DNA of 35,420 nt from UHGV virus genome UHGV-0075595. One strand, 5' to 3'. The notes under the pieces were generated by a model. It was not told the origin of the DNA. It worked only from the letters and a program-made list of their open reading frames with translations, and did not search any database. The position numbers were made by a program, and so were the translations under genes. The stretch comes from a virus. Positions 1,863 through 29,899 of the stretch are shown here, piece by piece; positions within the stretch are counted from its first letter, which is position 1; every line of letters starts with the position of its first letter.

Positions 1863-1934
1863 AACGAAACCCGTTTATTTGCAAACACCCTGCTTCAGGA
1901 AAAGTATACCGCGCAACAACACACCATTTACGGT

Positions 1935-4397: not shown

Positions 4398-4501
4398 GTT
4401 AAATCTCCAGATAGTCGCAGCACCCGTTGCGCCGCATATCTGGTTATTCTATTACCCAAAAAACCATATATGGATAGAAAGACTGTGAATATGAATAGAT
4501 A

Positions 4502-4516
4502 TTACCTTTCAGGTAA
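4502..4516. promoter_or_regulatory. Operator-like palindrome TTACCTTTCAGGTAA (member of ATTACC-N5-GGTAAT family)
   Basis: Perfect inverted half-sites; identical 17-mer TATTACCTTTCAGGTAA also at 23570..23586; lies between divergent tailspike and SOS-gene starts. Confidence 0.55.
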
Positions 4517-4555
4517 TTTGCAAAACGTGCTGGATAGCAAACAAATTATTTGCTA

Positions 4556-4571
4556 CTGTATAAATATACAG
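4556..4571 (+). promoter_or_regulatory. LexA (SOS) box CTGTATAAATATACAG overlapping a -10-like TATAAAT
   Basis: Exact CTGT-N8-ACAG with AT-rich centre, extended TACTGTATAAATATACAGTT; 23 bp upstream of ATG at 4594. Confidence 0.6.
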
Positions 4572-4593
4572 TTATTGCATGGAGAAGATTAAG

Positions 4594-4851
4594 ATGCAGC
4601 AGTATCACTATCCACTGGAAGAGGGATTTACCGAAAGGATTCACACGCCGGGAGGCGTCAGGTCACTGGTGGAGGGATCGCACTTGATGAAATTACTCCG
4701 GGATCTCGATAAGGATGGATTTAATGTCGATGGCCCACTTGCCGAACTGACTGCACTGATTAACTACGTCACCAGCTCACAGATGTCTATGCAGGATCTG
4801 CAAACACATCTCGACTATTGTGCCGAACAATTACGAAAACAAACCAGATAA
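4594..4851 (+). CDS. Small protein (85 aa) paralogous to the C-terminal domain of the downstream AntA-domain antirepressor; putative SOS-induced immunity modulator
   Basis: GGAGAAG RBS 6 nt upstream of ATG; shares a colinear motif series with the C-terminus of ORF 5169..5825 (IH-[ST]P-[GS]GV ... LM-LL ... DG-V-G ... ELT ... [DI]LQTH--Y); LexA box in its promoter. Confidence 0.55.
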   Translation: MQQYHYPLEEGFTERIHTPGGVRSLVEGSHLMKLLRDLDKDGFNVDGPLAELTALINYVTSSQMSMQDLQTHLDYCAEQLRKQTR

Positions 4852-4854
4852 GGT

Positions 4855-4897
4855 TTGAAATTACCAAATGGAGTGCTTATATTTACCTTTGCGGTAA
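4855..4897 (+). promoter_or_regulatory. Sigma70-like promoter (TTGAAA-17-TATATT) with operator TTACCTTTGCGGTAA overlapping -10/+1
   Basis: -35 at 4855..4860, -10 at 4878..4883, palindrome 4883..4897 with extended arms ATTTACC/GGTAAAT. Confidence 0.5.
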
Positions 4898-4924
4898 ATT
4901 TACATCGCACTCCTCTTGTGCCAT

Positions 4925-5010
4925 AGTAATCGGGCACTGGCAAAATCCAGTGCCGGGATTGGTCTCCCGGATTACTAAGTGGCGCATACCACGCCAGACG
5001 TGGTTTTTTT
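4925..5010 (+). ncRNA. Candidate structured leader / small RNA upstream of the antirepressor gene (nested hairpins ending in an intrinsic terminator)
   Basis: Hairpin GCACTGG-N6-CCAGTGC (4934..4953), CCGGGA-N6-TCCCGG (4953..4970), outer pairing AGTAATCGGG/CCCGGATTACT, then terminator; track ORF here starts with TTG and has no RBS. Confidence 0.3.
4988..5010 (+). terminator. Rho-independent terminator (ACCACG-ccaga-CGTGGT followed by T7)
   Basis: 6-bp GC-rich stem, 5-nt loop, T-run; sits between promoter at 4855 and antirepressor ATG at 5169. Confidence 0.55.
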
Positions 5011-5168
5011 ATGCGTATAGCACAGTCATGCCAGAATTATGGTGGGCTGAATGGGGGTCCGAAAGGACGCCGGTACCACTTAGGCCGGTAAGACCAACTC
5101 CGTTCAGTTCACCACCATCTGATTGGTCTCAGCGGTGGTGATGTAATTCGCTAAGTGGAGACGCCATC

Positions 5169-5825
5169 ATGAACGCTCAACTCATCCCCGTATTCAACGG
5201 CACTATATCTAACGAAACAGCCCTACTTTGTAATGCCCGCGATCTGCACGCTTTTTTAGGTGTTAAAAAGGTGTTTGCAGCATGGATTACAAATCGCATA
5301 TCAGAATACGAATTCATTGAAAATCAAGACTATATTTTGCTTTCCAATTTGGGAAAGCAAACATCTGGTAGAGGCGGCCACAACCGCAAAGAGTACCACC
5401 TCACCCTTGATACAGCCAAAGAGCTGGCGATGGTCGAGCGTAACGAAAAAGGTCGCCAGGTGCGACGCTACTTCATTGAATGCGAGAAACGTTTAAGACA
5501 ACAAGAAACAAAAGTGGAGAAGGTCTTGTCAGGCTTCATGCCCGCCATTATGGAGGCGATCAAGCTGGAAGACAAAAAAGAATACAGTGCCCCACTGAAG
5601 CCCGGCTACCGCAGCCTGATTCACTCGCCGTCTGGTGTTCTCGGCCTGACGGAGAACTCACTGCTGATGAATCTGCTGAACCAGTTACAGGACGACGGGC
5701 ACGACGTATCGGGCGCGGCGGCGGAGCTGACCACCATGTTCTGCTACATCGTTGGTGTGAGCAAATGCCTGCGTGATATCCAGACGCACGCGGAGTACAT
5801 CAACGACAAGGCAGGGTTCTTCTGA
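5169..5825 (+). CDS. Antirepressor, AntA-domain N-terminus plus C-terminal domain shared with ORF 4594..4851
   Basis: 218 aa; N-terminal LIPVFNG...[10 protein letters not shown]...[22 protein letters not shown]...[33 protein letters not shown] matches AntA-type antirepressor domain as recalled; GGAG RBS. Confidence 0.65.
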
Positions 5826-5869
5826 CGGGCGGCGGCACAGGGATGTGCCTTTAAATAATTCTGTACAGA

Positions 5870-5912
5870 TTGCAGACTGGGGGTGAATAGCGTACTATTA
5901 CCTCAAGGGTAA
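5870..5912 (+). promoter_or_regulatory. Sigma70-like promoter (TTGCAG-17-TACTAT) with operator TTACCTCAAGGGTAA overlapping -10/+1
   Basis: -35 5870..5875, -10 5893..5898, palindrome 5898..5912; same promoter-operator architecture as 4855..4897 and 29857..29899. Confidence 0.5.
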
Positions 5913-5971
5913 GAAAGCATTTTTAATCTTCCCTTCAAAACGCGTCCTGTAGCCAAACATGGGAGGACGAA

Positions 5972-6604
5972 ATGAGAACAAATACAACAAGAAAAGCGAT
6001 GCCATACATTATCCCAGAAGCAGATTTCGATAGAAAACTGAACATGTCTGAGAAGAACACTAGTCACACCGAAAGCTACTTAGCGAAAGGTGTGGTTGAT
6101 TTCGTTCTTCCGGGATTCACAACACCTTATGGTTATCGCCTTGTAAAATCTTGTAATGGCGATCATTACAGAATGATTACTACCAGCGATACTCCAGAAA
6201 CGGTGTATGCGGTTAAGTTAATCTTTCGGGAAGATATCGTCGAAGCCAAAAGAACATGTACGCAGATCATGGTATGGCGTACGCCTAATGTTATTCATGA
6301 CCGTGCTGTTCATGGTTTGCCTCAGATTTTTTTTCAGTTCTTCCTAGAGCAATATGCGATCGTTGTATCTGATGAGCAACAAACAATCGATGGGAGAAGA
6401 TTCTGGGAAAGAATGATTTCTTGGGCTATAAACACCCCAGGATATAATGTATACGTTTCAGATGGCTCTGAAGAAGATAGACCTCTTAGCTTCATGACAT
6501 CATGGGATGATTTCTATAGCCAGTGGGCTGATTTCTGTTGGGGCAGTGATAAAGATGTGCATACCCACAGACTACTGGTTATAAGCAAAGATAAACTGCA
6601 TTAA
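5972..6604 (+). CDS. Hypothetical protein (210 aa), cargo gene of unknown function in the immunity-like island
   Basis: Strong GGGAGG RBS 5 nt upstream; own operator-controlled promoter and own terminator; no family recognised. Confidence 0.6.
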   Translation: MRTNTTRKAMPYIIPEADFDRKLNMSEKNTSHTESYLAKGVVDFVLPGFTTPYGYRLVKSCNGDHYRMITTSDTPETVYAVKLIFREDIVEAKRTCTQIMVWRTPNVIHDRAVHGLPQIFFQFFLEQYAIVVSDEQQTIDGRRFWERMISWAINTPGYNVYVSDGSEEDRPLSFMTSWDDFYSQWADFCWGSDKDVHTHRLLVISKDKLH

Positions 6605-6609
6605 TAGAA

Positions 6610-6630
6610 GCCCGCAGCGCGGGCTTTTTT
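6610..6630 (+). terminator. Rho-independent terminator (GCCCGC-agc-GCGGGC followed by T6)
   Basis: Perfect GC stem immediately after stop of 5972..6604. Confidence 0.7.
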
Positions 6631-6702
6631 GTGGACGAAACAAAAGTCAGTGCTACACTCATTGACGCCACATTGAGGTGGCTTATAGATGGAAATTTCA
6701 CA

Positions 6703-6864
6703 ATGAAAAAAGCATTTGCTGCACTGTTCGTTTTGTTGTCTCTGGTAGCTTCAACTCAGGCCTTTGCCGGTCGTTGTCAGCACGACAGCGACACTGCTGC
6801 TGACGGCTCCCGCTGCGGTGGGCGTTCTGCGGATTCCCGCCCGGGTGGCGGTGGCATTCGTTAA
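6703..6864 (+). CDS. Candidate small secreted peptide (53 aa; signal peptide MKKAFAALFVLLSLVASTQAFA then Gly/Arg/Asp-rich 31-aa region with two Cys)
   Basis: In-frame ATG inside track ORF 6631..6864; possible promoter TTGACG-16-TATAGA at 6662..6689; weak RBS, so uncertain. Confidence 0.25.
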   Translation: MKKAFAALFVLLSLVASTQAFAGRCQHDSDTAADGSRCGGRSADSRPGGGGIR

Positions 6865-6886
6865 AAACAAGGCCGCGAAAGCGGCC
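6862..6886 (-). terminator. Rho-independent terminator of the late operon on the minus strand (GGCCGC-tttc-GCGGCC then TTGTTTTT)
   Basis: Hairpin 6871..6886 with T-rich tract on minus strand, 10 nt downstream of lipoprotein stop. Confidence 0.55.
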
Positions 6887-6895
6887 TGTGACATG

Positions 6896-7276
6896 TCACG
6901 CAACGCAATTATTACCGCGCCATGTAACATTTTTAATAATCTTATCAGCACCAAACTCAACGTAAACAGAGCAACTGAAATGGAGTGTATAACCGCCATC
7001 AGTTGTTGCGTATGTGTTTGAATATATAGTATTACCAATTAGATTAGACGTAGTATTATACGTTGTGGTTTGTGGTACGTTATAACTACCAGAGCTTGAG
7101 TAAACATACACTCTGTTTCCATCTGGAGATGTAAGCTCTCCCTGAGGATACCCCCACTGCTGAACCATTGCGTCTATACTCTGCCCGCGCCACGTAAGCA
7201 TATTTCTTTCAAACTGTGCAGCTGACTGGCATCCAACGAGAAGCATAAATCCAAAAATCAAAAATACTTTTCTCAT
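6896..7276 (-). CDS. Lipoprotein (predicted), last gene of late operon; possible superinfection-exclusion/surface protein
   Basis: Start at internal ATG giving MRKVFLIFGFMLLVGC lipobox signal; AGGGGT RBS; mature part T/S/N/Y-rich. Confidence 0.55.
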   Translation of the reverse strand: MRKVFLIFGFMLLVGCQSAAQFERNMLTWRGQSIDAMVQQWGYPQGELTSPDGNRVYVYSSSGSYNVPQTTTYNTTSNLIGNTIYSNTYATTDGGYTLHFSCSVYVEFGADKIIKNVTWRGNNCVA

Positions 7277-7323
7277 AATTACCCCTATCATGGAAAAACA
7301 GCACCAATCCACAAATTAACTAG

Positions 7324-7512
7324 TTATTTTATTATTCTTCCGAACAATACAATTCCGAATACTACAAAGCCGAACCATGCCGCTGCACGCAACAGAGATT
7401 CCAATTGAAACCCATTTTTATCAAAATGTATGAATAGCATAAAAACGCTGCACATATTAGTACAATAAAAGTTATTTGAACCATCATATCTCCTTTTATT
7501 GCGGAGTGACAT
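7324..7512 (-). CDS. Small hypothetical membrane protein
   Basis: 62 aa with C-terminal hydrophobic helix; weak RBS, overlaps end of upstream gene. Confidence 0.25.
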   Translation of the reverse strand: MSLRNKRRYDGSNNFYCTNMCSVFMLFIHFDKNGFQLESLLRAAAWFGFVVFGIVLFGRIIK

Positions 7513-9970: not shown

Positions 9971-9975
9971 TTAAT

Positions 9976-14288: not shown

Positions 14289-14300
14289 CTTATTATCCCC

Positions 14301-18703: not shown

Positions 18704-18719
18704 ATACACTCCTGCAATA

Positions 18720-18737
18720 AAGGGGCCGAAGCCCCTT
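18720..18737 (-). other. Stable RNA stem-loop on minus strand (AAGGGGC-UUCG-GCCCCUU) followed by UUAUU; partial terminator or mRNA-stability element
   Basis: 7-bp GC-rich stem with UUCG tetraloop in intergenic gap 18710..18753. Confidence 0.45.
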
Positions 18738-18753
18738 GTCTGATCCGCGAGGC

Positions 18754-19098: not shown

Positions 19099-19099
19099 C

Positions 19100-19537: not shown

Positions 19538-19552
19538 CTTCTTTCTCCATTA

Positions 19553-19572
19553 GTGGGTCTGTTACGACCCAC
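19553..19572 (-). other. RNA stem-loop immediately downstream of major capsid gene (GUGGGUC-N6-GACCCAC)
   Basis: 7-bp perfect stem in 51-nt gap between capsid stop (19589) and next start (19537); no U-tract. Confidence 0.4.
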
Positions 19573-19588
19573 AGGTTAATAACAGGCG

Positions 19589-20581
19589 TTACACCACGCG
19601 GGCTTCTGTTTCCAGAAGCGCATCAGTTTCACGGATTGGTACACCACGGAATGAAGTCCACCACTCGCCTTCTGTCTCTTTTACGCTGATCGCCAGAGAT
19701 GTTTTCTCCAGAGACTGCAAATCAAGAGCCTGGCCTACAGTGCGGTTCATGTAGAACACCGGGCGCCCCATGCCACGGTTCGGAATGCGATGCAGTGCTT
19801 TAACCATCAACTTCGCAATATTTGCGGCAGAGGAAGGTTCTGAAAGATTGCTGACATCGATGTTTGCAATGCGAACAACATAACGCCAGTCACGCAGAGC
19901 AAGTCCGTTGTCCCATTTGTAATGGGTACGGTAGCCTTCGTACTTGCCGCCATTCGCATCTTCCAGTGTCACCTGGCCTTTATCTTCCATCTGGATGCCA
20001 GCCTTCTTCCCTTTCGGGAAGATGCCATGCACGGTGTTTTCGCCCCACACTACTAACCAGATTGAGGTGTTATCTGTACCCGTGCCACCAGCATCAATGA
20101 TGTTCTGAGCATTACCCGCAGACAGGCTGGAATAGCGGGAGGACAGTCCCATAAACTGCTGAGGGTTAACGCTGGAATCACCATAAAACAGCGTCTGCGC
20201 CATCTGCTGATTCATCGCTTCAATAAATGCGCGGTCTTCAGACAGGCGGAATTCGGCGGTATTGCCGTTCAGATCAGCCAGTGACTTATCGACTTCAGCA
20301 TAGGTTTCCAGCATGCCCACGGAATCGGTTACCTGCACTGTGGTTGATTTGCTTGGCTGTACGCCATAGTTCAGCAAACGCCAGGTAGCTGAAGGTAAAC
20401 CAGAACGAATGGTGGTTCGGTGTCCGGTAGGAAGGTTCCCTTCGACAAAAGGCATATCCTGAAGGATCGGGTTAGTTTGACCGAGAAGCTCGATAATCTT
20501 ATCGACTTTCCCGTTTGGATCGACGCGCTTACCCCAGTCAGCCAGCGTCAGCGCAGTTAAGCCTTTAACAGCCATTGTCAT
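19589..20581 (-). CDS. Major capsid protein
   Basis: 330 aa; follows scaffold-like gene and portal; family not verified. Confidence 0.65.
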   Translation of the reverse strand: MTMAVKGLTALTLADWGKRVDPNGKVDKIIELLGQTNPILQDMPFVEGNLPTGHRTTIRSGLPSATWRLLNYGVQPSKSTTVQVTDSVGMLETYAEVDKSLADLNGNTAEFRLSEDRAFIEAMNQQMAQTLFYGDSSVNPQQFMGLSSRYSSLSAGNAQNIIDAGGTGTDNTSIWLVVWGENTVHGIFPKGKKAGIQMEDKGQVTLEDANGGKYEGYRTHYKWDNGLALRDWRYVVRIANIDVSNLSEPSSAANIAKLMVKALHRIPNRGMGRPVFYMNRTVGQALDLQSLEKTSLAISVKETEGEWWTSFRGVPIRETDALLETEARVV

Positions 20582-20589
20582 TTCCTCTC

Positions 20590-21291: not shown

Positions 21292-21584
21292 TCCTGTTCA
21301 CTGGCCTCTTTGGCCATCTTCAAATACTGTTCAGGGCAATGCGCCATAACGCGCTGAAACAGTTCCAGCGCCAGATTGCGTTGCCCCTCATTAAATGCCA
21401 TTGCCATAGCGTCCATCGGTGAGATAGCGGAAAACACACGGCCTTTCTCCAGCACCGACCAGACAACGCGACGCCCCTGTTCACTGCTCATGACAAAGCG
21501 AATGTCATCAATTTCACGCTGTGCCATGTCACGTTGCTTACGGGCGTTTTCTTCTTTCAGTTGATCGTCTTCGTAATCTGTCAT
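21288..21584 (-). CDS. Hypothetical head-assembly protein
   Basis: 98 aa, charged; overlaps portal stop and scaffold start. Confidence 0.4.
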   Translation of the reverse strand: MTDYEDDQLKEENARKQRDMAQREIDDIRFVMSSEQGRRVVWSVLEKGRVFSAISPMDAMAMAFNEGQRNLALELFQRVMAHCPEQYLKMAKEASEQE

Positions 21585-23260: not shown

Positions 23261-23274
23261 TTCAATGACTCCGG

Positions 23275-23481
23275 TTACTGACCAAGCAGCGTTTTACCGC
23301 TGGTATTAGCGGTTGATGTGTCGCCCTGAGAACCGGTAAGCAGCGTAGAACTACGACCAGCAGCAGCGCGACGGCGACGAGTTTCTTCGTCGCGGGCATC
23401 AACAACGGCGGCATCCTGCTCCTGTGGTGCTGCCTGAACTTCTGGTGTTGCAGGCACTGATGGTGAGCTACCCATGCACAT
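23275..23481 (-). CDS. Small acidic/Ser-rich hypothetical protein, first gene of late operon
   Basis: 68 aa; translation-initiation region GGAGTCATTGATATG nearly identical to that of portal (GGAGTCATTGAAATG). Confidence 0.45.
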   Translation of the reverse strand: MCMGSSPSVPATPEVQAAPQEQDAAVVDARDEETRRRRAAAGRSSTLLTGSQGDTSTANTSGKTLLGQ

Positions 23482-23571
23482 ATCAATGACTCCGTACGCA
23501 ATTAAATTATTACCAATTTAACCACATATGATTTATTTATCGTAGAAGGTTGACATTTAACGCGTGAATTA

Positions 23572-23586
23572 TTACCTTTCAGGTAA
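23572..23586. promoter_or_regulatory. Operator-like palindrome TTACCTTTCAGGTAA in the late-operon / tRNA control region
   Basis: Identical to site at 4502..4516; preceded by TTGACA (23550..23555) and AATTAT; half-site TTACCAATTTAACCA at 23510..23524. Confidence 0.55.
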
Positions 23587-23908
23587 CCAAAGAGCTCATT
23601 CTGGTTACTAACCTGACTGGCTTGTCGTTAAATTAAACAGGTGGAGTGAGCTTTTATTTTGAGCAGTACGGCGTATGGCACATGCGCCGATAGCGGTCTG
23701 GATACGTTTAAGGGGCACCCTCCCTTGCTCGGGCAAACGAACCAGGTAGCCGGAATGTGCAAGTCGAGCGGTTTTATTCCGCGCACGGGGATTCACCATC
23801 CCGGCGATTCGGTGTGACGCCTCGGAAGAGACGAGGGTACAACGATGAGAGCATTTATGGAGCCGCGACAAAGTGTGGCGCCTTAACAGGCTAAGTGCTC
23901 TCAGCGTT

Positions 23909-23985
23909 GTGGCATTAGCTCAGTTGGACAGAGCAACCGCCTTCTAAGCGGTTGGTCGCAGGTTCGAATCCTGCATGCCACGCCA
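23909..23985 (+). tRNA. tRNA-Arg (anticodon UCU, reads AGA/AGG)
   Basis: Manually folded cloverleaf: acceptor GTGGCAT/ATGCCAC, D-stem GCTC/GAGC, anticodon stem ACCGC/GCGGT with loop CTTCTAA, T-arm GCAGG-TTCGAAT-CCTGC, discriminator G, encoded CCA. Confidence 0.85.
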
Positions 23986-23994
23986 GAATCACGC

Positions 23995-24474
23995 CTAAGG
24001 ACCGTGATGCCAGAAGTTCCAGGTGCTTGGCGGTGATGGTTTCCCTTGAACAGCCCATTCAAGACCATCTTTTTGACCTTGGAGATAATCAAGCGGCAAC
24101 TCTTCATGATTACTTGCAGGTTCGGCACTATGAAGCATGGCAGCGCGGCAGGCGTTCCAGCCTCTCACCTCTGCAATAGCGGCAACAGCATCAACCGCGT
24201 ACATGCTAAGAGGATTAGGCATTGGTTTTTCTTCCGGTACTACTGGCACTGGAGGGGTGGCGTAGAGTGGAACTCCTCCCCCTCCACCAGAAAATTCATT
24301 GCGAGCGTTATACTCACGACCATCTGCGTCATCACGCATCCACGCCACCGGTTCTGCTTCCAGCGATGCCAGTGCAATTTCATAAGCACGGCGCTCAATA
24401 TTGTCTCGAACGTCCAGGCTGCCTATGCGCTCTTTGATTTCTTTAATCATTTCTTTGTCGGTGAAAGTGCTCAT
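23995..24474 (-). CDS. Hypothetical early protein
   Basis: Start at ATG 24474 with perfect AAGGAG RBS 6 nt upstream (track start is upstream TTG). Confidence 0.45.
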   Translation of the reverse strand: MSTFTDKEMIKEIKERIGSLDVRDNIERRAYEIALASLEAEPVAWMRDDADGREYNARNEFSGGGGGVPLYATPPVPVVPEEKPMPNPLSMYAVDAVAAIAEVRGWNACRAAMLHSAEPASNHEELPLDYLQGQKDGLEWAVQGKPSPPSTWNFWHHGP

Positions 24475-24475
24475 A

Positions 24476-25210
24476 TCAATCTCCTTTGGTACCAATGTTT
24501 ACAGCCTGGCAAGCCTCTTTGAGCACCCAGTCAACAGCGTCTTTCCATGCTCCGGTTTCGACTGGCGGATTCTCACGCTTTACCTGTTCATAGAAGCACA
24601 CTGCTTTAACCAGTCCTTCCGGTACTACTGGTGATGGCTGTTTAGCTTCTAAATCAGCAATTCTGTCAACCACGGCATCTACGGCATCTGAAAAGCCGAA
24701 CCAGTTACTCCACTCCGGCCTATCCCCGGTTGCTGCAAAGTACATATCAGCCAAAGCAGACTCAGCATGGTCACGCTCGTTAATGAGTTGCTCTTCGCTT
24801 TTCTCCAGTTCAGCAATACGCTTACTTCCATCCGAGATAACACCTTCGTAATACTCGCGCTGCTCGTTGAGTTTTGATTTTGTCTCCTCAAGCTCAACAC
24901 GCAGTTTCCCTACCGTTAGCGCAATATCCTCGTTCTCCTGGTCACGGCGTTTGATGTATTGCTGGTTTCTTTCCCGTTCATCCAGCAGCGCCTGCACTAC
25001 TTCAGGGTTGAAAGCTGCGATATAACGAGCGTTGTTCTCTGCGTTGTTCTGTCCATCAAAGCCGGTCCATTTGATAACGTCTTCACATCGTTTATCACCA
25101 GGTGTATGCACCGCATATGTACCAGTACCAGACGAAATAAATGCGACCCATTCACCCTGTGTTGCCAGTTGCGCCGCCTCACGCAGTGCCTGATAGTCAA
25201 TCTTGTTCAT
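24476..25210 (-). CDS. Hypothetical early protein with central coiled coil (resembles lambdoid Ea22/Ead-type proteins, unverified)
   Basis: 244 aa; AGGGTG RBS; E/R/K/Q-rich helical middle region. Confidence 0.4.
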   Translation of the reverse strand: MNKIDYQALREAAQLATQGEWVAFISSGTGTYAVHTPGDKRCEDVIKWTGFDGQNNAENNARYIAAFNPEVVQALLDERERNQQYIKRRDQENEDIALTVGKLRVELEETKSKLNEQREYYEGVISDGSKRIAELEKSEEQLINERDHAESALADMYFAATGDRPEWSNWFGFSDAVDAVVDRIADLEAKQPSPVVPEGLVKAVCFYEQVKRENPPVETGAWKDAVDWVLKEACQAVNIGTKGD

Positions 25211-25211
25211 G

Positions 25212-25511
25212 TCACATCACCCTGAATCCGTTGCATTTACGTAAGAAATCGCAGATATAGCCCTTCATTTTTTCATGCCAATCTCGATCATTCCCATTGC
25301 ACCAACCATCAGGTGGAGTCCAGTTTTCTATCAGAGCAGCCATTTTCTTTGCTTTCGCCGGAGTAGCTGTTGCGGTATCGCAGTAATGACGAGTGTCAAC
25401 CAACGCATCCATACCATCGATATCAAGTACGCAAAACCATGTGTGATTCGGAATTCCTACAGGTGGTATTTGTTGCCCACGTCGACGTTTATCAATAAGA
25501 TATACACTCAC
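25212..25511 (-). CDS. Hypothetical early protein (Cys/His/Trp-containing)
   Basis: GTG start at 25511 with AGGAGG RBS, overlapping upstream stop (GTGA coupling). Confidence 0.4.
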   Translation of the reverse strand: MSVYLIDKRRRGQQIPPVGIPNHTWFCVLDIDGMDALVDTRHYCDTATATPAKAKKMAALIENWTPPDGWCNGNDRDWHEKMKGYICDFLRKCNGFRVM

Positions 25512-26308
25512 TGCTTGCCTCCTTTGCGAATCTGTTCCGCCCATTCTTCAAGGGATTTCTCCGCATATTCACCGGACAGGCCATCAATCGGATGCGGTTC
25601 ATTAGCCAACTCTTCTTTCGCTGACAAAATCATGCGTGTAACGTCGAAAACTTCACGCAAAGATTTATTGATAAATCCGTGATTGAACGCAGCAGCAAGA
25701 CGGCTGGCGGTATAGTTAATCCCCTCGTTGCGTGCTTCCGCACGTACTTCAGCAAGGAAGGCATCGGTGGCTGGGGTTTCGACATTAGGTCGAAGCTCAT
25801 AATCACAAACTCTTTCAATCCATGGTGATACTCTGTCGCATTTCCTCTTCTTGCGTTCACCGACCTTGGTTGCCTGCTGAATAATTACCCCCCAGCAAAT
25901 GCTTTCGACCTCTTCGCTCCATCCATCGCAAGCATCGCCTCTATAGTCGTCAATTGCAGCCTCAGCAGCAGCGATAGCCTCCTCAGCAGTTTTGTGACAC
26001 TCGAAACTAAATTCAGAGCCATATGAGAAATACATAGCCCCGGCCTTCAGTCTTGCATTCTCCGCCGCCAACGCCGAAAACTTCTCGTGTGCCAACTTAA
26101 CAGCCGAATCAGCCTGCTTAATTGACTCAGTCGCTCTCTGGTGGTCTTCGGCCAGCGCATTAGCACGCACCAGTTGCACTTCCAGTTGCGTTGCCAAATC
26201 GCTGATCAGCTTTGCCACACTGCGCATATCAACGGCACCACATTCTGCTTTCAATTCCGAAGCCATCTCATGCCCGGCGGCAACTAACCCTTTGATGTTA
26301 CTTTCCAT
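25508..26308 (-). CDS. Hypothetical early protein with N-terminal coiled coil
   Basis: 266 aa; GAGGGT RBS. Confidence 0.4.
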   Translation of the reverse strand: MESNIKGLVAAGHEMASELKAECGAVDMRSVAKLISDLATQLEVQLVRANALAEDHQRATESIKQADSAVKLAHEKFSALAAENARLKAGAMYFSYGSEFSFECHKTAEEAIAAAEAAIDDYRGDACDGWSEEVESICWGVIIQQATKVGERKKRKCDRVSPWIERVCDYELRPNVETPATDAFLAEVRAEARNEGINYTASRLAAAFNHGFINKSLREVFDVTRMILSAKEELANEPHPIDGLSGEYAEKSLEEWAEQIRKGGKQ

Positions 26309-26369
26309 CTTTACCCTCGCTTATCCACATAACTTATTGATTACATTGATAACTAAAAATATCGTCGAT

Positions 26370-26714
26370 TCAGAACTCTTCGATGTTCCAGCCACCACCT
26401 GCTTTCTTTGGCTTAACCGTTACCCCGATGATTCGGAACGGATACTGATCTGCGGCGACTTTGGTTTTCACCCTGGCGTCGTCGGTCCAGAAACCTTTCA
26501 CTTCGTGCAGTTCCATCTCTCCGGTGGCGAGCATCACAGCGAAATCTGGCGTATAGAACGTGTTGTCAGCTAACCGCAGCTTGATACCCTCAAATCGATA
26601 CCAGACGATTTCTCCTGCACGTTTACGCATCTCAAGGTGCTGACAATACGCAGATTCTGTTTTGTTCATCTGGCCTGTTTTGAGTCGACCAAGAGCCTGT
26701 ATCTGTTTTCTCAT
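26370..26714 (-). CDS. Putative small PD-(D/E)xK nuclease (VRR-NUC-like or RusA-like)
   Basis: 114 aa; motif TPDFAV...EMELHEVKG consistent with PD...E-x-K; AGGGG RBS; operator overlaps RBS. Confidence 0.35.
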   Translation of the reverse strand: MRKQIQALGRLKTGQMNKTESAYCQHLEMRKRAGEIVWYRFEGIKLRLADNTFYTPDFAVMLATGEMELHEVKGFWTDDARVKTKVAADQYPFRIIGVTVKPKKAGGGWNIEEF

Positions 26715-26717
26715 GAT

Positions 26718-26732
26718 TTACCCCTGAGGTAA
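26718..26732. promoter_or_regulatory. Operator-like palindrome TTACCCCTGAGGTAA overlapping RBS of gene 26370..26714
   Basis: Perfect half-sites; 62 bp from site at 26780. Confidence 0.5.
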
Positions 26733-26779
26733 TTAAAAACCACATAAGACACGAAATCAATAGATTTTAGAATATTTTA

Positions 26780-26794
26780 TTACCTCATAGGTAA
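26780..26794. promoter_or_regulatory. Operator-like palindrome TTACCTCATAGGTAA downstream of P-like gene
   Basis: Perfect half-sites with ATTACC/GGTAAT extension; adjacent weak hairpin plus T7 run on minus strand. Confidence 0.5.
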
Positions 26795-26831
26795 TTATTG
26801 AGACGTAAAAAAATGCGCTATCGCGCTGGTA

Positions 26832-27632
26832 TTACTTGATAAATCCTGCCGCCTTTCCCCGCCTGTATTCCTCCATCAGCCACTGCGCCGGTGTTATTCC
26901 CCCCAGGGTGGCGGCGTTAGGCATGCACCCGAAACTTCGCCCTGGCGGGTGGTAAACGTCTCTCCCTGTGTCCGGAGGTGTACTCATGGGCTCTGGCTTT
27001 GCCTGTATGCTGATCACCGGATCGGGTATCTGCTGTCCGGAAGCCACCTTTTTCGCCCAATCATCGAGCAGCCTGCGCGCGTGTTTCTCAACCTCAATCT
27101 CGCTAAGCTGGCGCTGATACATTGCACGGCGGGTATCACATACGACCCAGTACATAACCGGATGCCGCCACGGGAATCTTTCGGGACCACCAGGATATAA
27201 ACTTTTTTCCTTGCTGTACCGGTGAAACTCCGCCATCACATCGTCAATGGTGACGCCAAGAACCATCTTGCTGTCTTTGCACCACTTGATAAATTGCCCT
27301 GGAGACGGCCAGAACGGAGATTCACTGGCGCGGGCGTGGCGCATACCAGCAGAAACCTGTTCACGGGTTCGGATCCCCCCTTCGGCAAACGCAGCAATCC
27401 ACTGCTGTTTTGCAGCAACTTCCTGCTCTGGCGTCTTCAGGTTGGTTACCACTGCCGCCGGAAACAGTTGTTTCAGCTGTTTAAAAAGGGCATCAACAAG
27501 CCTCTCTGCTGACATGTTCACCACATTGTCATTGTTGACGTACTGATGCTCATAACCTGACATGCGAGAAAGGGCTTCTCCGTCACGGTTTTGTATCGCG
27601 GTAAAAACGTTGTTCACAAGAAATCCTCCCAT
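26832..27632 (-). CDS. Replication protein P-like (helicase loader, lambda P family)
   Basis: Motifs QWIAAFAEGGIRTREQVSAGMRHARASESPFWPSPGQFIKWC and YPGGPERFPWRHPVMYWVV match lambda P as recalled. Confidence 0.7.
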   Translation of the reverse strand: MGGFLVNNVFTAIQNRDGEALSRMSGYEHQYVNNDNVVNMSAERLVDALFKQLKQLFPAAVVTNLKTPEQEVAAKQQWIAAFAEGGIRTREQVSAGMRHARASESPFWPSPGQFIKWCKDSKMVLGVTIDDVMAEFHRYSKEKSLYPGGPERFPWRHPVMYWVVCDTRRAMYQRQLSEIEVEKHARRLLDDWAKKVASGQQIPDPVISIQAKPEPMSTPPDTGRDVYHPPGRSFGCMPNAATLGGITPAQWLMEEYRRGKAAGFIK

Positions 27633-28429
27633 GCTTCAGGGCTGTTCCAGTGCGGAACGTTGTTATCAGGTAATGTTGATTGCTTCTGTCTGCTAATCTG
27701 CAGCCGCCTTGCCAGCTTCTGCTCCCACTGTGCCTGATGGTATGCCTTACCCTCAGCCATCCAGTAAATTCTGAACTCTGCAAGTTCCTGTGCCGTTGGC
27801 AGACTGTCCAGGTAGATCCCCTGCAATGAGCTTTTCCGAAGAAAGTCATCTGATGGCTGCCATTGTTCATGCATGACAAATTTGCCTAATTGCCCTGGCC
27901 CACCAGGAGGAACAAAGTTATTCATCACGGCGTTGTTTGCTCCGGGGTCATGAGGCACAGAATCCCCGCTTTTTGTCCTGCTCTCCCTCTCTTGGTTAAA
28001 TGACTGGTTATATGACTGGTTCTGGATCCCGTTTTTGGGATCATTCAACATCCCGTTTTTGGGATCATTCAACATCCCGTTTTTGGGTATATTCCCGTTT
28101 TCGGGTATATTCCCGTTTTCGGGTTCATTGCCCCACTCCCGGTTGCCTTTAATGTTCCCGTTTTTGGTTATATTAAGAGAGAAAACCCGCACTCTTTTTG
28201 TCGCTCCCTTTCTCTCTCCGGTATCTGAAATAAGCCCCATTTTCATGAGCGATATAAGCCCGGCCTGCACGGTTTTTTTATTCAGGCAAGTGTCTTTAAC
28301 GAGGCGTTCTATGCTGGGGTAGCAGAGGTTATATTCATCGGCTCTGTCAGCCATCGAGAGCAGTATGAGCTTTAATGATGAGCTACCTGGATCTGTCTCC
28401 CAGGCCCAATCTGTTGCATGTCTGCTCAT
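27614..28429 (-). CDS. Replication initiator, lambda O-like (N-terminal winged-helix domain, internal iteron-encoded repeats, C-terminal P-interaction region)
   Basis: 271 aa; tandem DNA repeats inside the gene give the peptide repeat NGNIPENGNIPKNGMLNDPKNGMLNDPKNG; directly upstream of P-like gene. Confidence 0.6.
   Translation of the reverse strand: MSRHATDWAWETDPGSSSLKLILLSMADRADEYNLCYPSIERLVKDTCLNKKTVQAGLISLMKMGLISDTGERKGATKRVRVFSLNITKNGNIKGNREWGNEPENGNIPENGNIPKNGMLNDPKNGMLNDPKNGIQNQSYNQSFNQERESRTKSGDSVPHDPGANNAVMNNFVPPGGPGQLGKFVMHEQWQPSDDFLRKSSLQGIYLDSLPTAQELAEFRIYWMAEGKAYHQAQWEQKLARRLQISRQKQSTLPDNNVPHWNSPEAWEDFL
28026..28130. repeat. Replication-origin iterons: five tandem 18-24 bp repeats (core CCCGTTTT(T)GGG(A)T(C)ATTC) inside the O-like gene
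   Basis: Two identical 24-mers ATCCCGTTTTTGGGATCATTCAAC followed by three degenerate copies; further partial copy near 28156..28176 and AT-rich tract. Confidence 0.6.
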
Positions 28430-28444
28430 GATTAATCTCCGCTA

Positions 28445-28645
28445 TCAGCTTGAGTGTTGTGGGGAGGAATTAATCATGATCTGCTTAATCTCTGCCCTGA
28501 TGCGACGGTTTGACTCCATGGTGCACTCAACACAGTGTCCGTTGTAAACCCAGCGTTCACTGTCATGTCCGTGCTTACATGGTTTTCCGGTGTAGTAGCG
28601 TTTAAGTCCGCGCTTTGCGGCATCAATACGTGTAATGATTTCCAT
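28445..28645 (-). CDS. Small putative zinc-binding protein (C-x2-H ... C-x2-C)
   Basis: Start at internal ATG 28645 (MEIITRIDAAKRGLKRYYTGKPCKHGH...CVEC). Confidence 0.4.
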   Translation of the reverse strand: MEIITRIDAAKRGLKRYYTGKPCKHGHDSERWVYNGHCVECTMESNRRIRAEIKQIMINSSPQHSS

Positions 28646-28725
28646 GGTAAGCCCTGTTATTAGTATTGGGATTACGGTTATTTTGTGCTGACACAAAAAA
28701 AAGATCAACCAGATTTGGTTTTTTA

Positions 28726-28740
28726 TTACCTTTGAGGTAC
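28726..28740. promoter_or_regulatory. Operator-like palindrome TTACCTTTGAGGTAC (one mismatch) between Cro-like gene terminator and downstream genes
   Basis: Half-site mismatch in right arm. Confidence 0.4.
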
Positions 28741-28745
28741 GAATA

Positions 28746-28773
28746 GATATGAAAAGACCGCCGGATGGCGGTC
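28746..28773 (-). terminator. Rho-independent terminator after Cro-like gene (GACCGCC-atcc-GGCGGTC then TTTTCATAT on minus strand)
   Basis: 7-bp GC-rich stem at 28756..28773, T-rich tract on minus strand; 23 nt downstream of stop at 28796. Confidence 0.55.
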
Positions 28774-28795
28774 TACAGAGGGTTGTTGCCAGATA

Positions 28796-29026
28796 TCATG
28801 AGTAGAAGAAGTATGCCAGTTCCGCTTTTGAGCGCAGCCATTGTCTTGTTTTACAGGCTTTAAAAAGCCCATTCATCAATACCTTACCTGGCATTTTGCG
28901 CTTACCTGTTAAGTGAGTCTGGATATAGTGACTCGTCGTTCCGGCTTCCTGTGCGAAGGCTTCACGCTCATCCGGAGTAAGTGCAAGCCAGTGCTTTTTG
29001 AAATCGAAATGTCCGTTATCGCTCAT
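28796..29026 (-). CDS. Cro-like HTH regulator
   Basis: 76 aa; helix-turn-helix-like AFAQEAGTTSHYIQTHLTGKRKMP; divergent from repressor gene across operator cluster. Confidence 0.45.
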   Translation of the reverse strand: MSDNGHFDFKKHWLALTPDEREAFAQEAGTTSHYIQTHLTGKRKMPGKVLMNGLFKACKTRQWLRSKAELAYFFYS

Positions 29027-29062
29027 AGCTATTGCCTGATATTTATTTCAGATAATAAATAT

Positions 29063-29125
29063 TCACCCATAAGGTAACAAAAATCAAGGATAGTTACCTA
29101 TGGGGTGCATTTACCTGTTGGGTAA
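29063..29125. promoter_or_regulatory. Immunity operator cluster (three sites: TCACCCATAAGGTAA 29063..29077, TTACCTATGGGGTGC 29094..29108, TTACCTGTTGGGTAA 29111..29125)
   Basis: Three related palindromes in the 154-bp gap between divergent Cro-like and repressor genes; first two are inverted near-copies of each other. Confidence 0.6.
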
Positions 29126-29180
29126 TATTGCTTTAAATTGAATCATCTACTGATTCATATATGAGGCGATTTTCCAGAAA

Positions 29181-29765
29181 ATGAAAAGTATCCAGGACGT
29201 CCGCAGGCAAAATCTCAACGACTTGATCGACCGTGAATTCAATGGTGTTCAGACGCGGATGGCAGAAAAACTTGGAACTCAGGCAAATCTGGTAAACCGC
29301 TGGGCTCTTGGCAAGAAGGTTATCGGCGACCAGGTTGCGCGAAAAATTGAAGCTGCCGCCAATAAACCCCGTAACTGGCTTGATATCGATCGCTCGCTTT
29401 CTCAGGAAGGTTTTCAGCCTGTCGGCCCAAGCGACATTGGTCAGCTGGCAGCTCACAACCTGGAACGCTGGATGAGTGAAAGCCGCGACCTTTCAACTCA
29501 GGGAAAACTTCACCGCGCATCCGGCGTCGCCCAGGTGACAATCAGTCGCCTGTTAAACAATGAGGTCAGCGTTTCCATTTCCACCCTGGAGAATGTTGCA
29601 TCCGCATTCGGGCGTCACGGATATGAACTACTGATTCACCCGCACGACCCTGCGACTATCAACTATGACCGCTCGCGCTACGCATTGTTACCCGAAACCG
29701 AGAAAGCAAAGATCGAAAGTTACATTGAATTTGTCATCAACCAGAACGAAAAAAACAAACAATAA
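29181..29765 (+). CDS. Repressor with tandem XRE-type HTH domains, no recognisable LexA-like S24 autocleavage domain
   Basis: 194 aa; two HTH-like segments (MAEKLGTQANLVNRWALGKK... and LHRASGVAQVTISRLLNNEV...); followed by strong terminator. Confidence 0.6.
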   Translation: MKSIQDVRRQNLNDLIDREFNGVQTRMAEKLGTQANLVNRWALGKKVIGDQVARKIEAAANKPRNWLDIDRSLSQEGFQPVGPSDIGQLAAHNLERWMSESRDLSTQGKLHRASGVAQVTISRLLNNEVSVSISTLENVASAFGRHGYELLIHPHDPATINYDRSRYALLPETEKAKIESYIEFVINQNEKNKQ

Positions 29766-29785
29766 AATCATACTCTTCAGTAAGT

Positions 29786-29809
29786 AAGCCGCCTTCTGGC
29801 GGCTTTTTT
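29786..29809 (+). terminator. Rho-independent terminator (AAGCCGCC-ttct-GGCGGCTT followed by T-run)
   Basis: 8-bp stem directly after repressor stop. Confidence 0.7.
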
Positions 29810-29822
29810 ATTGCCTATACTA

Positions 29823-29899
29823 TTACCTAATGGGTAATTTTTTTAACTCATATCTATTGACATCAAACCAAATACGCATAATTATTACCTCAACGGTAA
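29823..29899 (+). promoter_or_regulatory. Left-operon-like promoter (TTGACA-17-AATTAT) flanked by two operators (TTACCTAATGGGTAA 29823..29837; TTACCTCAACGGTAA 29885..29899)
   Basis: -35 at 29857..29862; operators 62 bp apart centre to centre; downstream operator overlaps -10/+1. Confidence 0.55.

What the first reader, a model, noticed from the sequence alone, without database searches (positions are those of the whole stretch)
4502..29899. About 12 palindromic operator-like sites (ATTACC-N5-GGTAAT) at nearly every transcription-unit boundary
Sites read directly from the sequence: 4502..4516, 4883..4897, 5898..5912, 23572..23586, 26718..26732, 26780..26794, 28726..28740 (1 mismatch), 29063..29077 (1 mismatch), 29094..29108 (degenerate), 29111..29125, 29823..29837, 29885..29899. 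They cluster between the divergent Cro-like and repressor genes and recur in front of the late operon/tRNA, the antirepressor, the unknown cargo gene, internal early-operon breakpoints and the left-operon promoter. In three cases the palindrome begins at the last base of a -10 hexamer preceded by a 17-bp spacer and a TTGACA-like -35. This implies one repressor directly gates most promoters of the phage, including the late operon, which is unlike the lambda-type antitermination cascade and closer to P1/N15-type multi-operator immunity.
Basis: partly seen in the sequence, partly recalled or inferred. Interest (0 to 1): 0.75.

Follow-up and report, generated by a model that had tools for sequence, protein, structure and literature searches.

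The report
Dispersed repressor operators of a φV10-like prophage
The twelve palindromes are real and are almost certainly the binding sites of the prophage's master repressor, placed on nearly every promoter, but the same sites are already annotated in the related phage ε15 and the repressor/antirepressor pair has already been studied, so this is a solid but largely known feature.

Summary
Observation confirmed. All 12 listed TTACC-N5-GGTAA palindromes exist at the stated coordinates. There are 9 exact and 3 one-mismatch core matches against 0.5 expected, though one of the three (4270) is a coding-region chance hit and not a listed site. All 12 listed sites lie in the ~10% of the window that is non-coding. 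A 13th site is cut by the window's right end.

The window is an ε15/φV10-like (Uetakevirus) prophage. The same motif sits at syntenic positions in six relatives whose repressors are only 42–100% identical. The ε15 RefSeq record already annotates seven such sites as "repressor" binding sites.

The repressor (29181..29765) is a homologue of the crystallised tetrameric SPC32H Rep. The small gene at 4594..4851 is its antirepressor Ant, preceded by a perfect LexA box.

Four operators start at the last T of a -10 hexamer, behind a 17-bp spacer and a TTGACA-like -35. Two promoters carry a second operator exactly 62 bp upstream, just after a terminator.

The interpretation (one repressor gating most units, P1-like) is largely supported. 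The exception is site 23572, which overlaps a conserved promoter pointing at tRNA-Arg, not the late operon, and late genes probably need further factors.

Novelty is low: a new member of a known kind.

The parts
29181..29765 (+). Rep, the master repressor. It has an N-terminal HTH DNA-binding domain, a middle HTH-like dimerisation domain and a C-terminal tetramerisation/Ant-binding domain. It has no S24 peptidase domain.
   Evidence: Full-length match to SPC32H Rep, PDB 5D50_A, E 4e-42. Pfam finds HTH_3 at 106-147 and a weak YdaS-like HTH at 21-61. The NLVNRW helix is invariant across the genus. It is 100% identical to ZX5 ORF21.
28796..29026 (-). Cro-like small HTH protein, divergent from rep.
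   Evidence: phrog_35 'transcriptional repressor', E 6e-13. It is 58-84% identical across the genus, with an invariant AGTTSHYIQTHLT motif.
29063..29077 (.). OR operator (1 mismatch), lying in the spacer/-10 of PR. The PR -35 (TTGATT, 29087..29082, minus strand) is invariant in the genus.
29094..29108 (.). OR middle operator, degenerate (TTACCTATGGGGTGC). It lies 31 bp from 29063 and 17 bp from 29111.
   Evidence: PWM score 14.2; position conserved in all relatives.
29111..29125 (.). OR operator overlapping the conserved -35 (TTTACC, 29110..29115) of the putative rep promoter (-10 TTAAAT, 29133..29138). This predicts negative autoregulation.
   Evidence: both hexamers invariant in alignment A8.
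29786..29805 (+). Intrinsic terminator of rep, immediately upstream of the distal OL operator.
   Evidence: conserved in alignment A1.
29823..29837 (.). OL distal operator, 62 bp (centre to centre) upstream of the proximal one.
29857..29885 (+). PL promoter, TTGACA-17-AATTAT. The last T of the -10 is the first T of operator 29885.
   Evidence: CTATTGAC is invariant in six genomes.
29885..29899 (.). OL proximal operator, covering the -10/+1 of PL.
28726..28740 (.). Operator (1 mismatch) directly after the cro-like terminator (28755..28774) and upstream of the gp42-like/dnaT/P unit. It occupies a 'distal-type' position relative to a possible TTGATC-17-CAAAAT promoter.
   Evidence: syntenic in phiV10 and Tyrion, weak in eps15 and SPC32H.
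26780..26794 (.). Distal operator of the internal early promoter. It follows the terminator downstream of the P gene.
26732..26760 (-). Internal early promoter, TTGATT-17-TTTAAT (minus strand). The -10 ends on the first base of operator 26718..26732.
   Evidence: Read. The hexamers and spacing have no gaps in six genomes (alignment A2).
26718..26732 (.). Proximal operator, 62 bp from 26780. Its spacer carries the Shine-Dalgarno sequence of the DUF1064 gene, whose start codon is 4 bp away (26714).
23572..23586 (.). Operator between the virion operon (gp3-like start at 23481, minus strand) and tRNA-Arg. It overlaps the -10 region of a conserved plus-strand promoter (TTGACA 23550..23555, 16-17 bp spacer, TTACCT/TACCTT).
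   Evidence: tRNA orientation.
23909..23985 (+). tRNA-Arg(tct), transcribed opposite to the virion genes. It is the likely product of the operator-controlled promoter at 23550.
4502..4516 (.). Operator in the divergent tailspike/ant intergenic region.
   Evidence: annotated as repressor-binding at the homologous eps15 position 19895..19911.
4554..4573 (.). LexA box TACTGTATAAATATACAGTT on the ant promoter.
   Evidence: The only match in the window, 0 expected. CTGT..ACAG is invariant in six genomes.
4594..4851 (+). Small antirepressor Ant (SPC32H type).
   Evidence: PDB 5D50_E, E 2e-47, about 90% identity.
4855..4883 (+). Promoter TTGAAA-17-TATATT for the isrK-C4-antA unit.
   Evidence: Best promoter hit of the region, 10/12; conserved in phiV10, phiv142-3 and Tyrion.
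4883..4897 (.). Operator overlapping the -10/+1 of the isrK-C4-antA promoter.
4934..5010 (+). isrK-family sRNA, ending in an intrinsic terminator (4988..5004).
   Evidence: Rfam RF01394, 67.7 bits against a gathering score of 50; terminator.
5035..5119 (+). C4 antisense RNA (P1/P7 immI type). Its loop CCACTTAG (5076..5083) is complementary to CTAAGTGG (5151..5158) at the antA ribosome-binding site.
   Evidence: Rfam RF01695, 61.2 bits against a gathering score of 45; complementarity.
5169..5825 (+). Large antirepressor: an AntA N-terminal domain fused to a C-terminal domain homologous to the small Ant.
   Evidence: Pfam AntA, E 4e-26. The C-terminus is 42% identical to Ant over 74 aa, E 7e-20.
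5870..5912 (+). Promoter TTGCAG-17-TACTAT plus operator 5898..5912, in front of the cargo gene 5972..6604 (phrog_1349, function unknown).
   Evidence: The same module precedes a different gene in phiv142-3.
35413..35420 (.). Left part of a 13th operator-like site (GTATACCTTTAAGGTAATA in relatives), about 45 bp upstream of int and cut by the window end.

Best explanation
What the sites are. The palindromes are the operators of Rep (29181..29765), the master repressor of an eps15/phiV10-type (Uetakevirus) prophage.

How Rep binds. Rep is a non-cleavable repressor that works as a tetramer. Its N-terminal helix-turn-helix pairs each read one TTACC-N5-GGTAA palindrome, whose half-sites are one helical turn apart.

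Where the operators sit. In the lysogen, Rep occupies an operator on nearly every transcription unit.
- Operator covering the -10/+1: the left-operon promoter PL, the internal early promoter before the DUF1064 gene, the isrK-C4-antA promoter, the cargo-gene promoter and the tRNA-Arg promoter.
- Operator covering the spacer of PR.
- Operator covering the -35 of Rep's own promoter.
- A second operator exactly 62 bp upstream (about six helical turns) at PL and at the internal early promoter. It sits just after the preceding terminator and lets the two DNA-binding pairs of a tetramer (or of two tetramers) hold both sides of the promoter cooperatively.

Consequence for the early region. The early region is cut into segments by intrinsic terminators, and each segment restarts from its own Rep-gated promoter. 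Repression therefore does not depend on blocking a single antitermination cascade.

Induction. It runs through LexA. DNA damage frees the ant promoter (LexA box 4554..4573). Ant takes the Rep tetramer apart. That derepresses, among others, the promoter of the second antirepressor, AntA-Ant, which is itself damped by the C4 antisense RNA. The result is a feed-forward commitment to lytic growth.

Shown versus inferred.
- Shown here: the sites, their non-random placement, their conservation, and the homologies.
- Taken from the literature: Rep's tetramer, its binding to palindromes, and disassembly by Ant.
- Inferred: occupancy of each individual site, the 62-bp clamp, and the feed-forward loop.
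For: - Enrichment: 12 core matches against 0.53 expected.
- Placement: all 12 sites fall in about 10% non-coding DNA and are cleanly separated from background by PWM.
- Classic immunity layout: three sites between the divergent rep and cro-like genes, two beside PL.
- Conservation: the same motif sits at syntenic positions in phiV10, phiv142-3, Tyrion, BUCT711, eps15 and SPC32H, with 8-11 exact cores per genome, although Rep identity falls to 42%.
- Matching protein conservation: the Rep N-terminal domain keeps an invariant NLVNRW helix, consistent with an unchanged operator.
- Prior annotation: eps15 RefSeq marks seven of these sites as protein_bind 'repressor'.
- Homology: Rep matches SPC32H Rep (5D50_A, E 4e-42) and Ant matches 5D50_E (E 2e-47). 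There is a single perfect LexA box.
- Literature on SPC32H Rep: it binds palindromic DNA as a tetramer and Ant breaks the tetramer (PMC9638917). Its C-terminal domain is a TetDloop fold associated with DNA looping, and its DNA-binding ends are about 100 A apart (PMC9986798).
- Function of this exact protein: the identical Rep of ZX5, when overexpressed, abolishes free phage and cuts holin and endolysin mRNA by more than 99.9% (PMC9782041).
- Promoter modules: the terminator / distal operator / -35 / 17 bp / -10-proximal operator arrangement aligns without gaps in six genomes, with 62 bp spacing (63 in one case).
Against: - No binding data for this phage could be obtained here, and the primary papers (Kropinski 2007; Kim & Ryu 2013; Kim et al. 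2016) were not readable. Which sites have been footprinted is therefore unknown to me.
- The conserved Cro-like protein could share some or all of the sites.
- Site 28726 does not overlap a recognisable -10.
- Site 23572 overlaps a promoter directed away from the late genes.
- Site 29094 is weak.
- 62 bp (about 210 A) is longer than the roughly 100 A span of a tetramer, so the clamp needs sharp bending or higher oligomers.
- A second conserved palindrome (AACCAYATATGGTT) at many of the same promoters implies further regulators.
- The late-gene regulator gene and terS/terL are missing from this window, so control of the late operon cannot be read here.
Confidence: 0.85

Rival explanations
1. 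The palindromes are primarily Cro-like protein sites (28796..29026), or are shared equally between Rep and Cro as in lambda. Their dispersal would then serve to shut early promoters down during lytic growth rather than to maintain lysogeny.
For: - The Cro-like protein is more conserved across the genus (58-84%) than Rep (42-78%) and has an invariant HTH-like segment, which also fits an unchanged operator.
- In lambdoid switches both proteins use the same operators (established knowledge).
- The sites overlap early promoters PL, PR and the internal promoter.
Against: - The eps15 annotation assigns the sites to the repressor.
- SPC32H Rep is reported to bind palindromic sites (PMC9638917).
- Rep overexpression alone silences lysis genes.
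- Operators on the antirepressor and cargo promoters make most sense for the lysogenic repressor.
- Sharing is not excluded and would be complementary rather than exclusive.
Confidence: 0.1
2. Only the OR and OL clusters are functional operators. The dispersed single sites would be promoter-associated sequence conserved for another reason: the TTACC half resembles part of a -10 context, or the sites serve integrase/IHF or packaging functions.
For: - Several single sites coincide with -10 hexamers, so part of their conservation could be promoter conservation.
- The int-proximal site overlaps an eps15 feature annotated as integrase binding, and an inverted repeat.
Against: - Both half-sites are conserved, including the GGTAA half downstream of the -10, while the 5-bp spacers vary freely. 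That is the signature of a dimer-binding site, not of a promoter.
- Distal operators lie outside promoters.
- No comparable matches occur in coding DNA.
Confidence: 0.04

Closest known systems
Repressor-binding sites annotated in Salmonella phage epsilon15 (NC_004775 / AY150271; Kropinski et al. 2007)
   Same: - Same genus and same gene order.
- Same ATTACC-N5-GGTAAT motif.
- Same dispersed positions: before terS, before gp3, the ant/tailspike intergenic region, beside PL, and the internal early promoter.
   Different: - Rep is only 42% identical.
- The eps15 record lists 7 sites and omits the three OR sites, the proximal internal-promoter site, the lysis-cassette site and the int site, all of which the motif scan finds.
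- This window adds sites on the isrK-C4-antA and cargo promoters, which eps15 lacks.
- This window lacks the terS sites because that region is deleted.
SPC32H Rep-Ant switch (Kim & Ryu 2013; Kim et al. 2016; PDB 5D50, 5D4Z)
   Same: - Homologous Rep (full length) and Ant (about 90% identical).
- LexA box on the ant promoter.
- ant lies divergent from the tailspike gene.
- Identical operator core in the SPC32H genome.
   Different: - This prophage has an additional, larger antirepressor (an AntA-Ant fusion) behind isrK and C4 RNAs.
- I could not read the primary papers to learn which operators were tested.
Bacteriophage P1 immunity: C1 repressor with many dispersed operators, plus immI (c4 antisense RNA, ant)
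   Same: - One repressor with operators on many separate operons.
- An antirepressor operon whose promoter carries an operator and whose leader encodes a C4-family antisense RNA complementary to the ant ribosome-binding site.
- Knowledge of P1 itself is from memory.
   Different: - P1 operators are asymmetric 17-mers and C1 is unrelated to XRE-type HTH proteins. Here the sites are palindromes read by an HTH tetramer.
- P1 is a plasmid prophage.
- No P1 homologue of the candidate late regulator was found.
Lambda-type OR/OL switch
   Same: Divergent repressor and cro genes with three operators between them, and further operators at the leftward promoter next to the repressor gene.
   Different: - There is no S24 autocleavage domain, and induction is by antirepressor.
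- Operators also sit on internal early, accessory and late-region promoters.
- Early-operon segments restart from their own repressible promoters after terminators.
Mycobacteriophage L5 gp71 'stoperators'
   Same: Many repressor sites are spread over the genome, several at gene boundaries.
   Different: L5 sites are asymmetric, orientation-dependent and act inside transcription units by blocking elongation (from memory). Here the sites are symmetric and mostly overlap promoter hexamers.

Membership tests
Uetakevirus (eps15/SPC32H-type) Rep-Ant immunity system | Rep homologue with an N-terminal HTH DNA-binding domain, a middle dimerisation domain and a C-terminal tetramerisation/Ant-binding domain, and no peptidase S24 domain. 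| tested here: met
   5D50_A match over residues 1-190, E 4e-42. Pfam finds HTH domains only. Genus alignment.
Uetakevirus (eps15/SPC32H-type) Rep-Ant immunity system | Small Ant homologue encoded divergently from the tailspike gene. | tested here: met
   5D50_E match, E 2e-47. Same position as SPC32H ant and eps15 gp19.
Uetakevirus (eps15/SPC32H-type) Rep-Ant immunity system | LexA box on the ant promoter. | tested here: met
   TACTGTATAAATATACAGTT at 4554..4573, unique in the window with 0 expected. Conserved in six genomes.
Uetakevirus (eps15/SPC32H-type) Rep-Ant immunity system | ATTACC-N5-GGTAAT operators at OR, at OL and at dispersed promoter sites. | tested here: met
Uetakevirus (eps15/SPC32H-type) Rep-Ant immunity system | Physical binding of Rep to these sites and its release by Ant. 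| not testable with these tools
   Only indirect support: secondary descriptions of Kim et al. 2016 and ZX5 overexpression data for the identical Rep.
P1-type immunity (C1 multi-operator control plus immI) | Operators of one repressor dispersed over many operons. | tested here: met
   Ten separate regulatory regions carry sites.
P1-type immunity (C1 multi-operator control plus immI) | Asymmetric 17-bp operator recognised by a C1-family repressor. | tested here: not met
   The sites are two-fold symmetric. The repressor is an XRE/HTH_3-type protein homologous to SPC32H Rep.
P1-type immunity (C1 multi-operator control plus immI) | immI module: a repressor-controlled promoter, a C4 antisense RNA and a downstream antirepressor whose ribosome-binding site is complementary to C4. 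| tested here: met
   Promoter and operator at 4855..4897. Rfam C4, 61.2 bits. AntA domain. 8-nt complementarity at the SD sequence.
Lambda-type switch | RecA-stimulated autocleavage domain in the repressor. | tested here: not met
   No Peptidase_S24 hit. The homologue is reported as non-cleavable (PMC7380047).
Lambda-type switch | N/Q-type antitermination cascade driving delayed-early and late genes. | tested here: inconclusive
   No N/Q-like family was seen among the proteins scanned, but not every ORF was scanned. The candidate late regulator (phrog_536, N15 gp46-like) is deleted from the window.
L5-type stoperators | Asymmetric sites with one orientation relative to transcription, acting within operons. 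| tested here: not met
   The sites are palindromic and mostly overlap -10/-35 hexamers.

The most novel reading that the evidence does not exclude
Two features do not seem to be described in what I could read.

1. The invariant 62-bp operator pairs that bracket PL and the internal early promoter may be the DNA counterpart of Rep's unusual 'trans' tetramer. One tetramer, or an octamer, would clamp a promoter from both sides in a very small loop. That would give the so far uncharacterised repression mechanism of this repressor class.

2. A second conserved palindrome, AACCAYATATGGTT, sits inside the spacer or -35 of PL, the internal early promoter, the isrK promoter and the post-cro promoter, and also upstream of the virion, tailspike and lysis genes. 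It may be the site of a second regulator, perhaps the phrog_536/N15 gp46-like protein or the Cro-like protein, that switches early promoters off and late promoters on.

Together these would make a two-key circuit rather than a single-repressor one.
Probability: 0.3. Interest if true: 0.5.

Novelty: new member of a known kind. Interest (0 to 1): 0.3.

Why it matters
- It gives a complete, testable operator map for the φV10/ZX5 group of E. coli O-antigen-converting phages. These phages are used as O157 reporter and typing phages. Their published records carry no operator annotation, and a recent study of the identical repressor says its mode of action is still unresolved.
- It shows that the ε15 site list is incomplete: OR, the proximal internal-promoter site, the lysis site and the int site are missing from it.
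- It ties the structurally unusual tetrameric Rep to a fixed 62-bp operator geometry that can be tested directly.
- It is not a new principle. Dispersed-operator immunity is known from P1, and this motif is already known from ε15.

Tried and rejected
- **Primary papers.** I tried to read Kropinski et al. 2007 (PMC2698709), Kim & Ryu 2013 (PMC3807360) and Kim et al. 2016 (PMC4983836). None is held, so I relied on the GenBank/RefSeq features and on secondary descriptions.
- **Operator/repressor covariation.** I looked for it across the genus. The operator core and the Rep recognition helix are both invariant, so no covariation test is possible.
- **Second palindrome as a Cro site in OR.** A similar sequence in the rep leader (ATTCATATATGAGG) is not conserved in relatives. 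Rejected.
- **Second palindrome as a DnaA or IHF site.** On inspection it does not fit either consensus. Rejected.
- **Candidate late regulator as a P1 Lpa relative.** tblastn finds N15 gp46, ZF40 and vibriophage proteins but nothing in P1. There is no Pfam family.
- **PWM scoring of relatives.** The PWM built from the window's sites under-scores sites with A after TTACC (ε15, BUCT711), so core-pattern counts were used for relatives instead.
- **Terminase-less junction.** I searched complete E. coli genomes for it. No record covers 80% or more of it, so whether it is a real deletion or an assembly artefact is unresolved.

Full report
**1. The observation**

The core TTACC-N5-GGTAA occurs 9 times exactly and 3 times with one mismatch, where dinucleotide shuffles give 0.53. 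The full 17-mer of the title is exact at only three sites.

29094 is a two-mismatch site. The extra one-mismatch hit at 4270 lies inside the tailspike gene and is probably chance.

A PWM made from the sites separates the twelve (14.2-26.2 bits) from all other positions (10.6 or less). With a curated gene map (89-91% coding), all twelve fall in non-coding DNA, while the following dozen hits are all coding.

A thirteenth site is cut by the right end of the window (35413..35420). Its full form is present upstream of int in five relatives.

**2. What the window is**

It is a prophage-ordered genome, from the lysis genes to int, of an ε15/φV10-like podophage (genus Uetakevirus). It is about 97% identical to phiv142-3 and φV10 over most of its length.

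Compared with those phages, the segment carrying the last early genes, the candidate late regulator, terS, terL and gp03 is missing. Window 24050..25519 replaces phiv142-3 24134..28703. That junction is not found in complete E. coli genomes.

**3. The sites are already annotated in the type phage**

The ε15 RefSeq record carries seven 'protein_bind / repressor / lysogeny' features. Their sequences are ATTACC-N5-GGTAAT. They lie at these places:
- before terS;
- before gp3;
- between gp19 (ant) and the tail-fibre gene;
- three beside the leftward promoter;
- one inside the early right operon.

The φV10 and phiv142-3 records have no such features.

Scanning seven genomes gives 8-11 exact cores each, at syntenic positions. 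The genomes are the window, φV10, phiv142-3, Tyrion, BUCT711, ε15 and SPC32H. The scan also finds sites that the ε15 record does not list: three in OR, the proximal internal-promoter site, one before the lysis cassette and one before int.

**4. The proteins**

- **Rep.** The 194-aa repressor matches the crystallised SPC32H Rep over its full length (5D50_A, E 4e-42). According to secondary accounts of Kim et al. 2016:
  - Rep has an N-terminal DNA-binding domain, a middle dimerisation domain and a C-terminal tetramerisation/Ant-binding domain.
  - It binds palindromic sites as a tetramer, with DNA-binding pairs formed across dimers.
  - It is disassembled by tetrameric Ant (PMC9638917; PMC9986798).
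- **Genus conservation.** Rep identity across the genus drops to 42%, but the N-terminal helix NLVNRW is invariant. This fits the unchanged operator.
- **Small Ant.** The ORF 4594..4851 is about 90% identical to SPC32H Ant (5D50_E). It is preceded by the only LexA box in the window, which is conserved in six genomes.
- **Experimental data on the identical Rep.** The Rep of phage ZX5 is 100% identical. Its overexpression abolished free phage and reduced holin and endolysin mRNA by more than 99.9%. The authors state that the mechanism remains to be unravelled and describe no operators (PMC9782041).

**5. Anatomy of the sites**

(a) OR.
- There are three sites between rep and the Cro-like gene, spaced 31 and 17 bp apart.
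- The PR -35 (TTGATT) is invariant, and site 29063 fills the PR spacer and -10.
- The putative rep promoter has its -35 (TTTACC) inside site 29111 and a conserved -10 (TTAAAT). This predicts negative autoregulation.

(b) PL. The order is: rep terminator, distal operator, 19 bp, CTATTGACA, 17 bp, AATTAT, with the last T starting the proximal operator. The arrangement has no gaps in six genomes, and the pair spacing is 62 bp (63 in BUCT711).

(c) Internal early promoter. The same module sits on the minus strand after the terminator of the P gene: distal operator 26780, TTGATT-17-TTTAAT, then proximal operator 26718. The spacer of the proximal operator holds the Shine-Dalgarno sequence of the DUF1064 gene. 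The spacing is again 62 bp in all six genomes.

(d) Site 28726 follows the Cro-like gene's terminator. It resembles a lone distal operator.

(e) Site 4883 overlaps the strongest predicted promoter of its region (TTGAAA-17-TATATT). What follows is a P1 immI-like module:
- an isrK sRNA with its terminator;
- a C4 antisense RNA (Rfam gathering-level hits), whose loop is complementary to the antA ribosome-binding site;
- a 218-aa protein with an AntA N-domain and an Ant-like C-domain.

(f) Site 5898 overlaps TTGCAG-17-TACTAT, in front of a 210-aa cargo gene of unknown function. In phiv142-3 the same module precedes a different gene.

(g) Site 4502 lies between the divergent tailspike and ant genes, about 40 bp upstream of the LexA box.

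(h) Site 23572 lies 91 bp upstream of the first virion gene. The conserved promoter it overlaps (TTGACA at a fixed 16 bp from the operator in all seven genomes) points the other way. It points toward tRNA-Arg(tct), which has that orientation in the window, φV10, phiv142-3, SPC32H and BUCT711.

**6. Mechanism**

The best-supported reading is that Rep occupies an operator on almost every promoter in the lysogen. Where a pair exists, it acts cooperatively through its two DNA-binding ends.

Induction is by antirepression under LexA control. The second, Rep- and C4-controlled antirepressor would provide feed-forward.

The 62-bp pairing (about six helical turns, same face of the helix) together with a looping-type tetramerisation domain is suggestive. 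It is still an inference: 62 bp is about twice the reported span of the tetramer.

**7.

These points are supported:
- The description 'operator-like sites at nearly every transcription-unit boundary' is correct.
- 'One repressor gates most promoters' is the most economical reading.
- The P1 analogy is apt, and is reinforced by the C4/Ant module.

These points are not shown:
- Direct control of the late operon in this window is not demonstrated.
- In relatives the late-operon sites are two adjacent operators just before terS. There, TACTAT overlaps the first operator, with a poor -35 directly after a terminator. That region is deleted from this window.

**8. A second conserved palindrome**

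AACCAYATATGGTT gives 5 hits with two mismatches or fewer, against 0.42 expected (related count). It occurs in these places:
- between the operator and the start of the virion operon;
- between the operator and the start of the tailspike gene;
- before the lysis cassette in relatives;
- within the spacers of PL and the internal early promoter;
- overlapping the -35 of the isrK promoter and the post-cro promoter.

This argues for at least one more regulator. The candidate late regulator (phrog_536, related to N15 gp46) shows no detectable relation to P1 Lpa.

**9. Novelty and score**

The motif, its assignment to the repressor and its dispersed placement are in the public ε15 record. The Rep/Ant/LexA switch has been characterised genetically and structurally in SPC32H.

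What is added here:
- the full site map for the φV10-type E. coli phages;
- the promoter phasing;
- the fixed 62-bp pairs;
- the link to an immI-like isrK/C4/AntA-Ant module;
- the second palindrome.

I rate it a new member of a known kind, with interest 0.3.

Noticed in passing
window 4462..4475, 23520..23533, 26738..26751, 28707..28720, 4842..4855, 1922..1935; also phiV10 (L001) 24736, eps15 (L003) 24761, Tyrion (L005) 26452: A second recurrent palindrome, AACCAYATATGGTT, sits next to or inside many of the Rep-controlled promoters and upstream of the virion, tailspike and lysis genes. In two late regions it is part of an invariant block, ATTACC-N5-AACCAYATATG. It gives 5 hits with two mismatches or fewer against 0.42 expected. 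It is not annotated in any record seen, and its binding protein is unknown.
   Followed up: partly
window 23985..25519 (junction near 24050): Relative to phiv142-3 and phiV10, the window lacks about 4 kb holding the last early genes, the phrog_536 regulator, terS, terL and gp03. A DUF551-like ORF (23995..24495) appears fused across the junction. No complete E. coli genome carries this junction. It is either a defective prophage or an assembly artefact.
   Followed up: partly
window 4934..5010 and 5035..5119: An isrK-family sRNA and a C4 antisense RNA lie in tandem in the leader of the large antirepressor gene. The C4 loop is complementary to the antA Shine-Dalgarno region (5151..5158), as in P1 immI.
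   Followed up: partly
window 5169..5825: The 218-aa 'antirepressor' is a fusion. It has an AntA N-terminal domain plus a C-terminal domain 42% identical to the small SPC32H-type Ant. The prophage therefore carries two Ant modules, one under LexA control and one under Rep/C4 control.
   Followed up: partly
window 35413..35420: An operator-like site (GTATACCTTTAAGGTAATA in relatives), about 45 bp upstream of int, is cut by the window end. It is conserved with the same one-base deviation in five relatives. In eps15 it overlaps a feature annotated as integrase binding.
   Followed up: partly
window 23482..23550: A roughly 60-bp non-coding block between the first virion gene and the operator is invariant across all seven genomes, including the distant BUCT711. 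Its function is unknown; it could be a late promoter, a leader, or an UP element of the tRNA promoter.
   Followed up: no
window 5972..6604: This cargo gene of unknown function (phrog_1349, no Pfam hit) has its own promoter overlapped by a Rep operator. It is therefore predicted to be silent in the lysogen, unlike typical morons. phiv142-3 has a different gene behind the same promoter-operator module.
   Followed up: no
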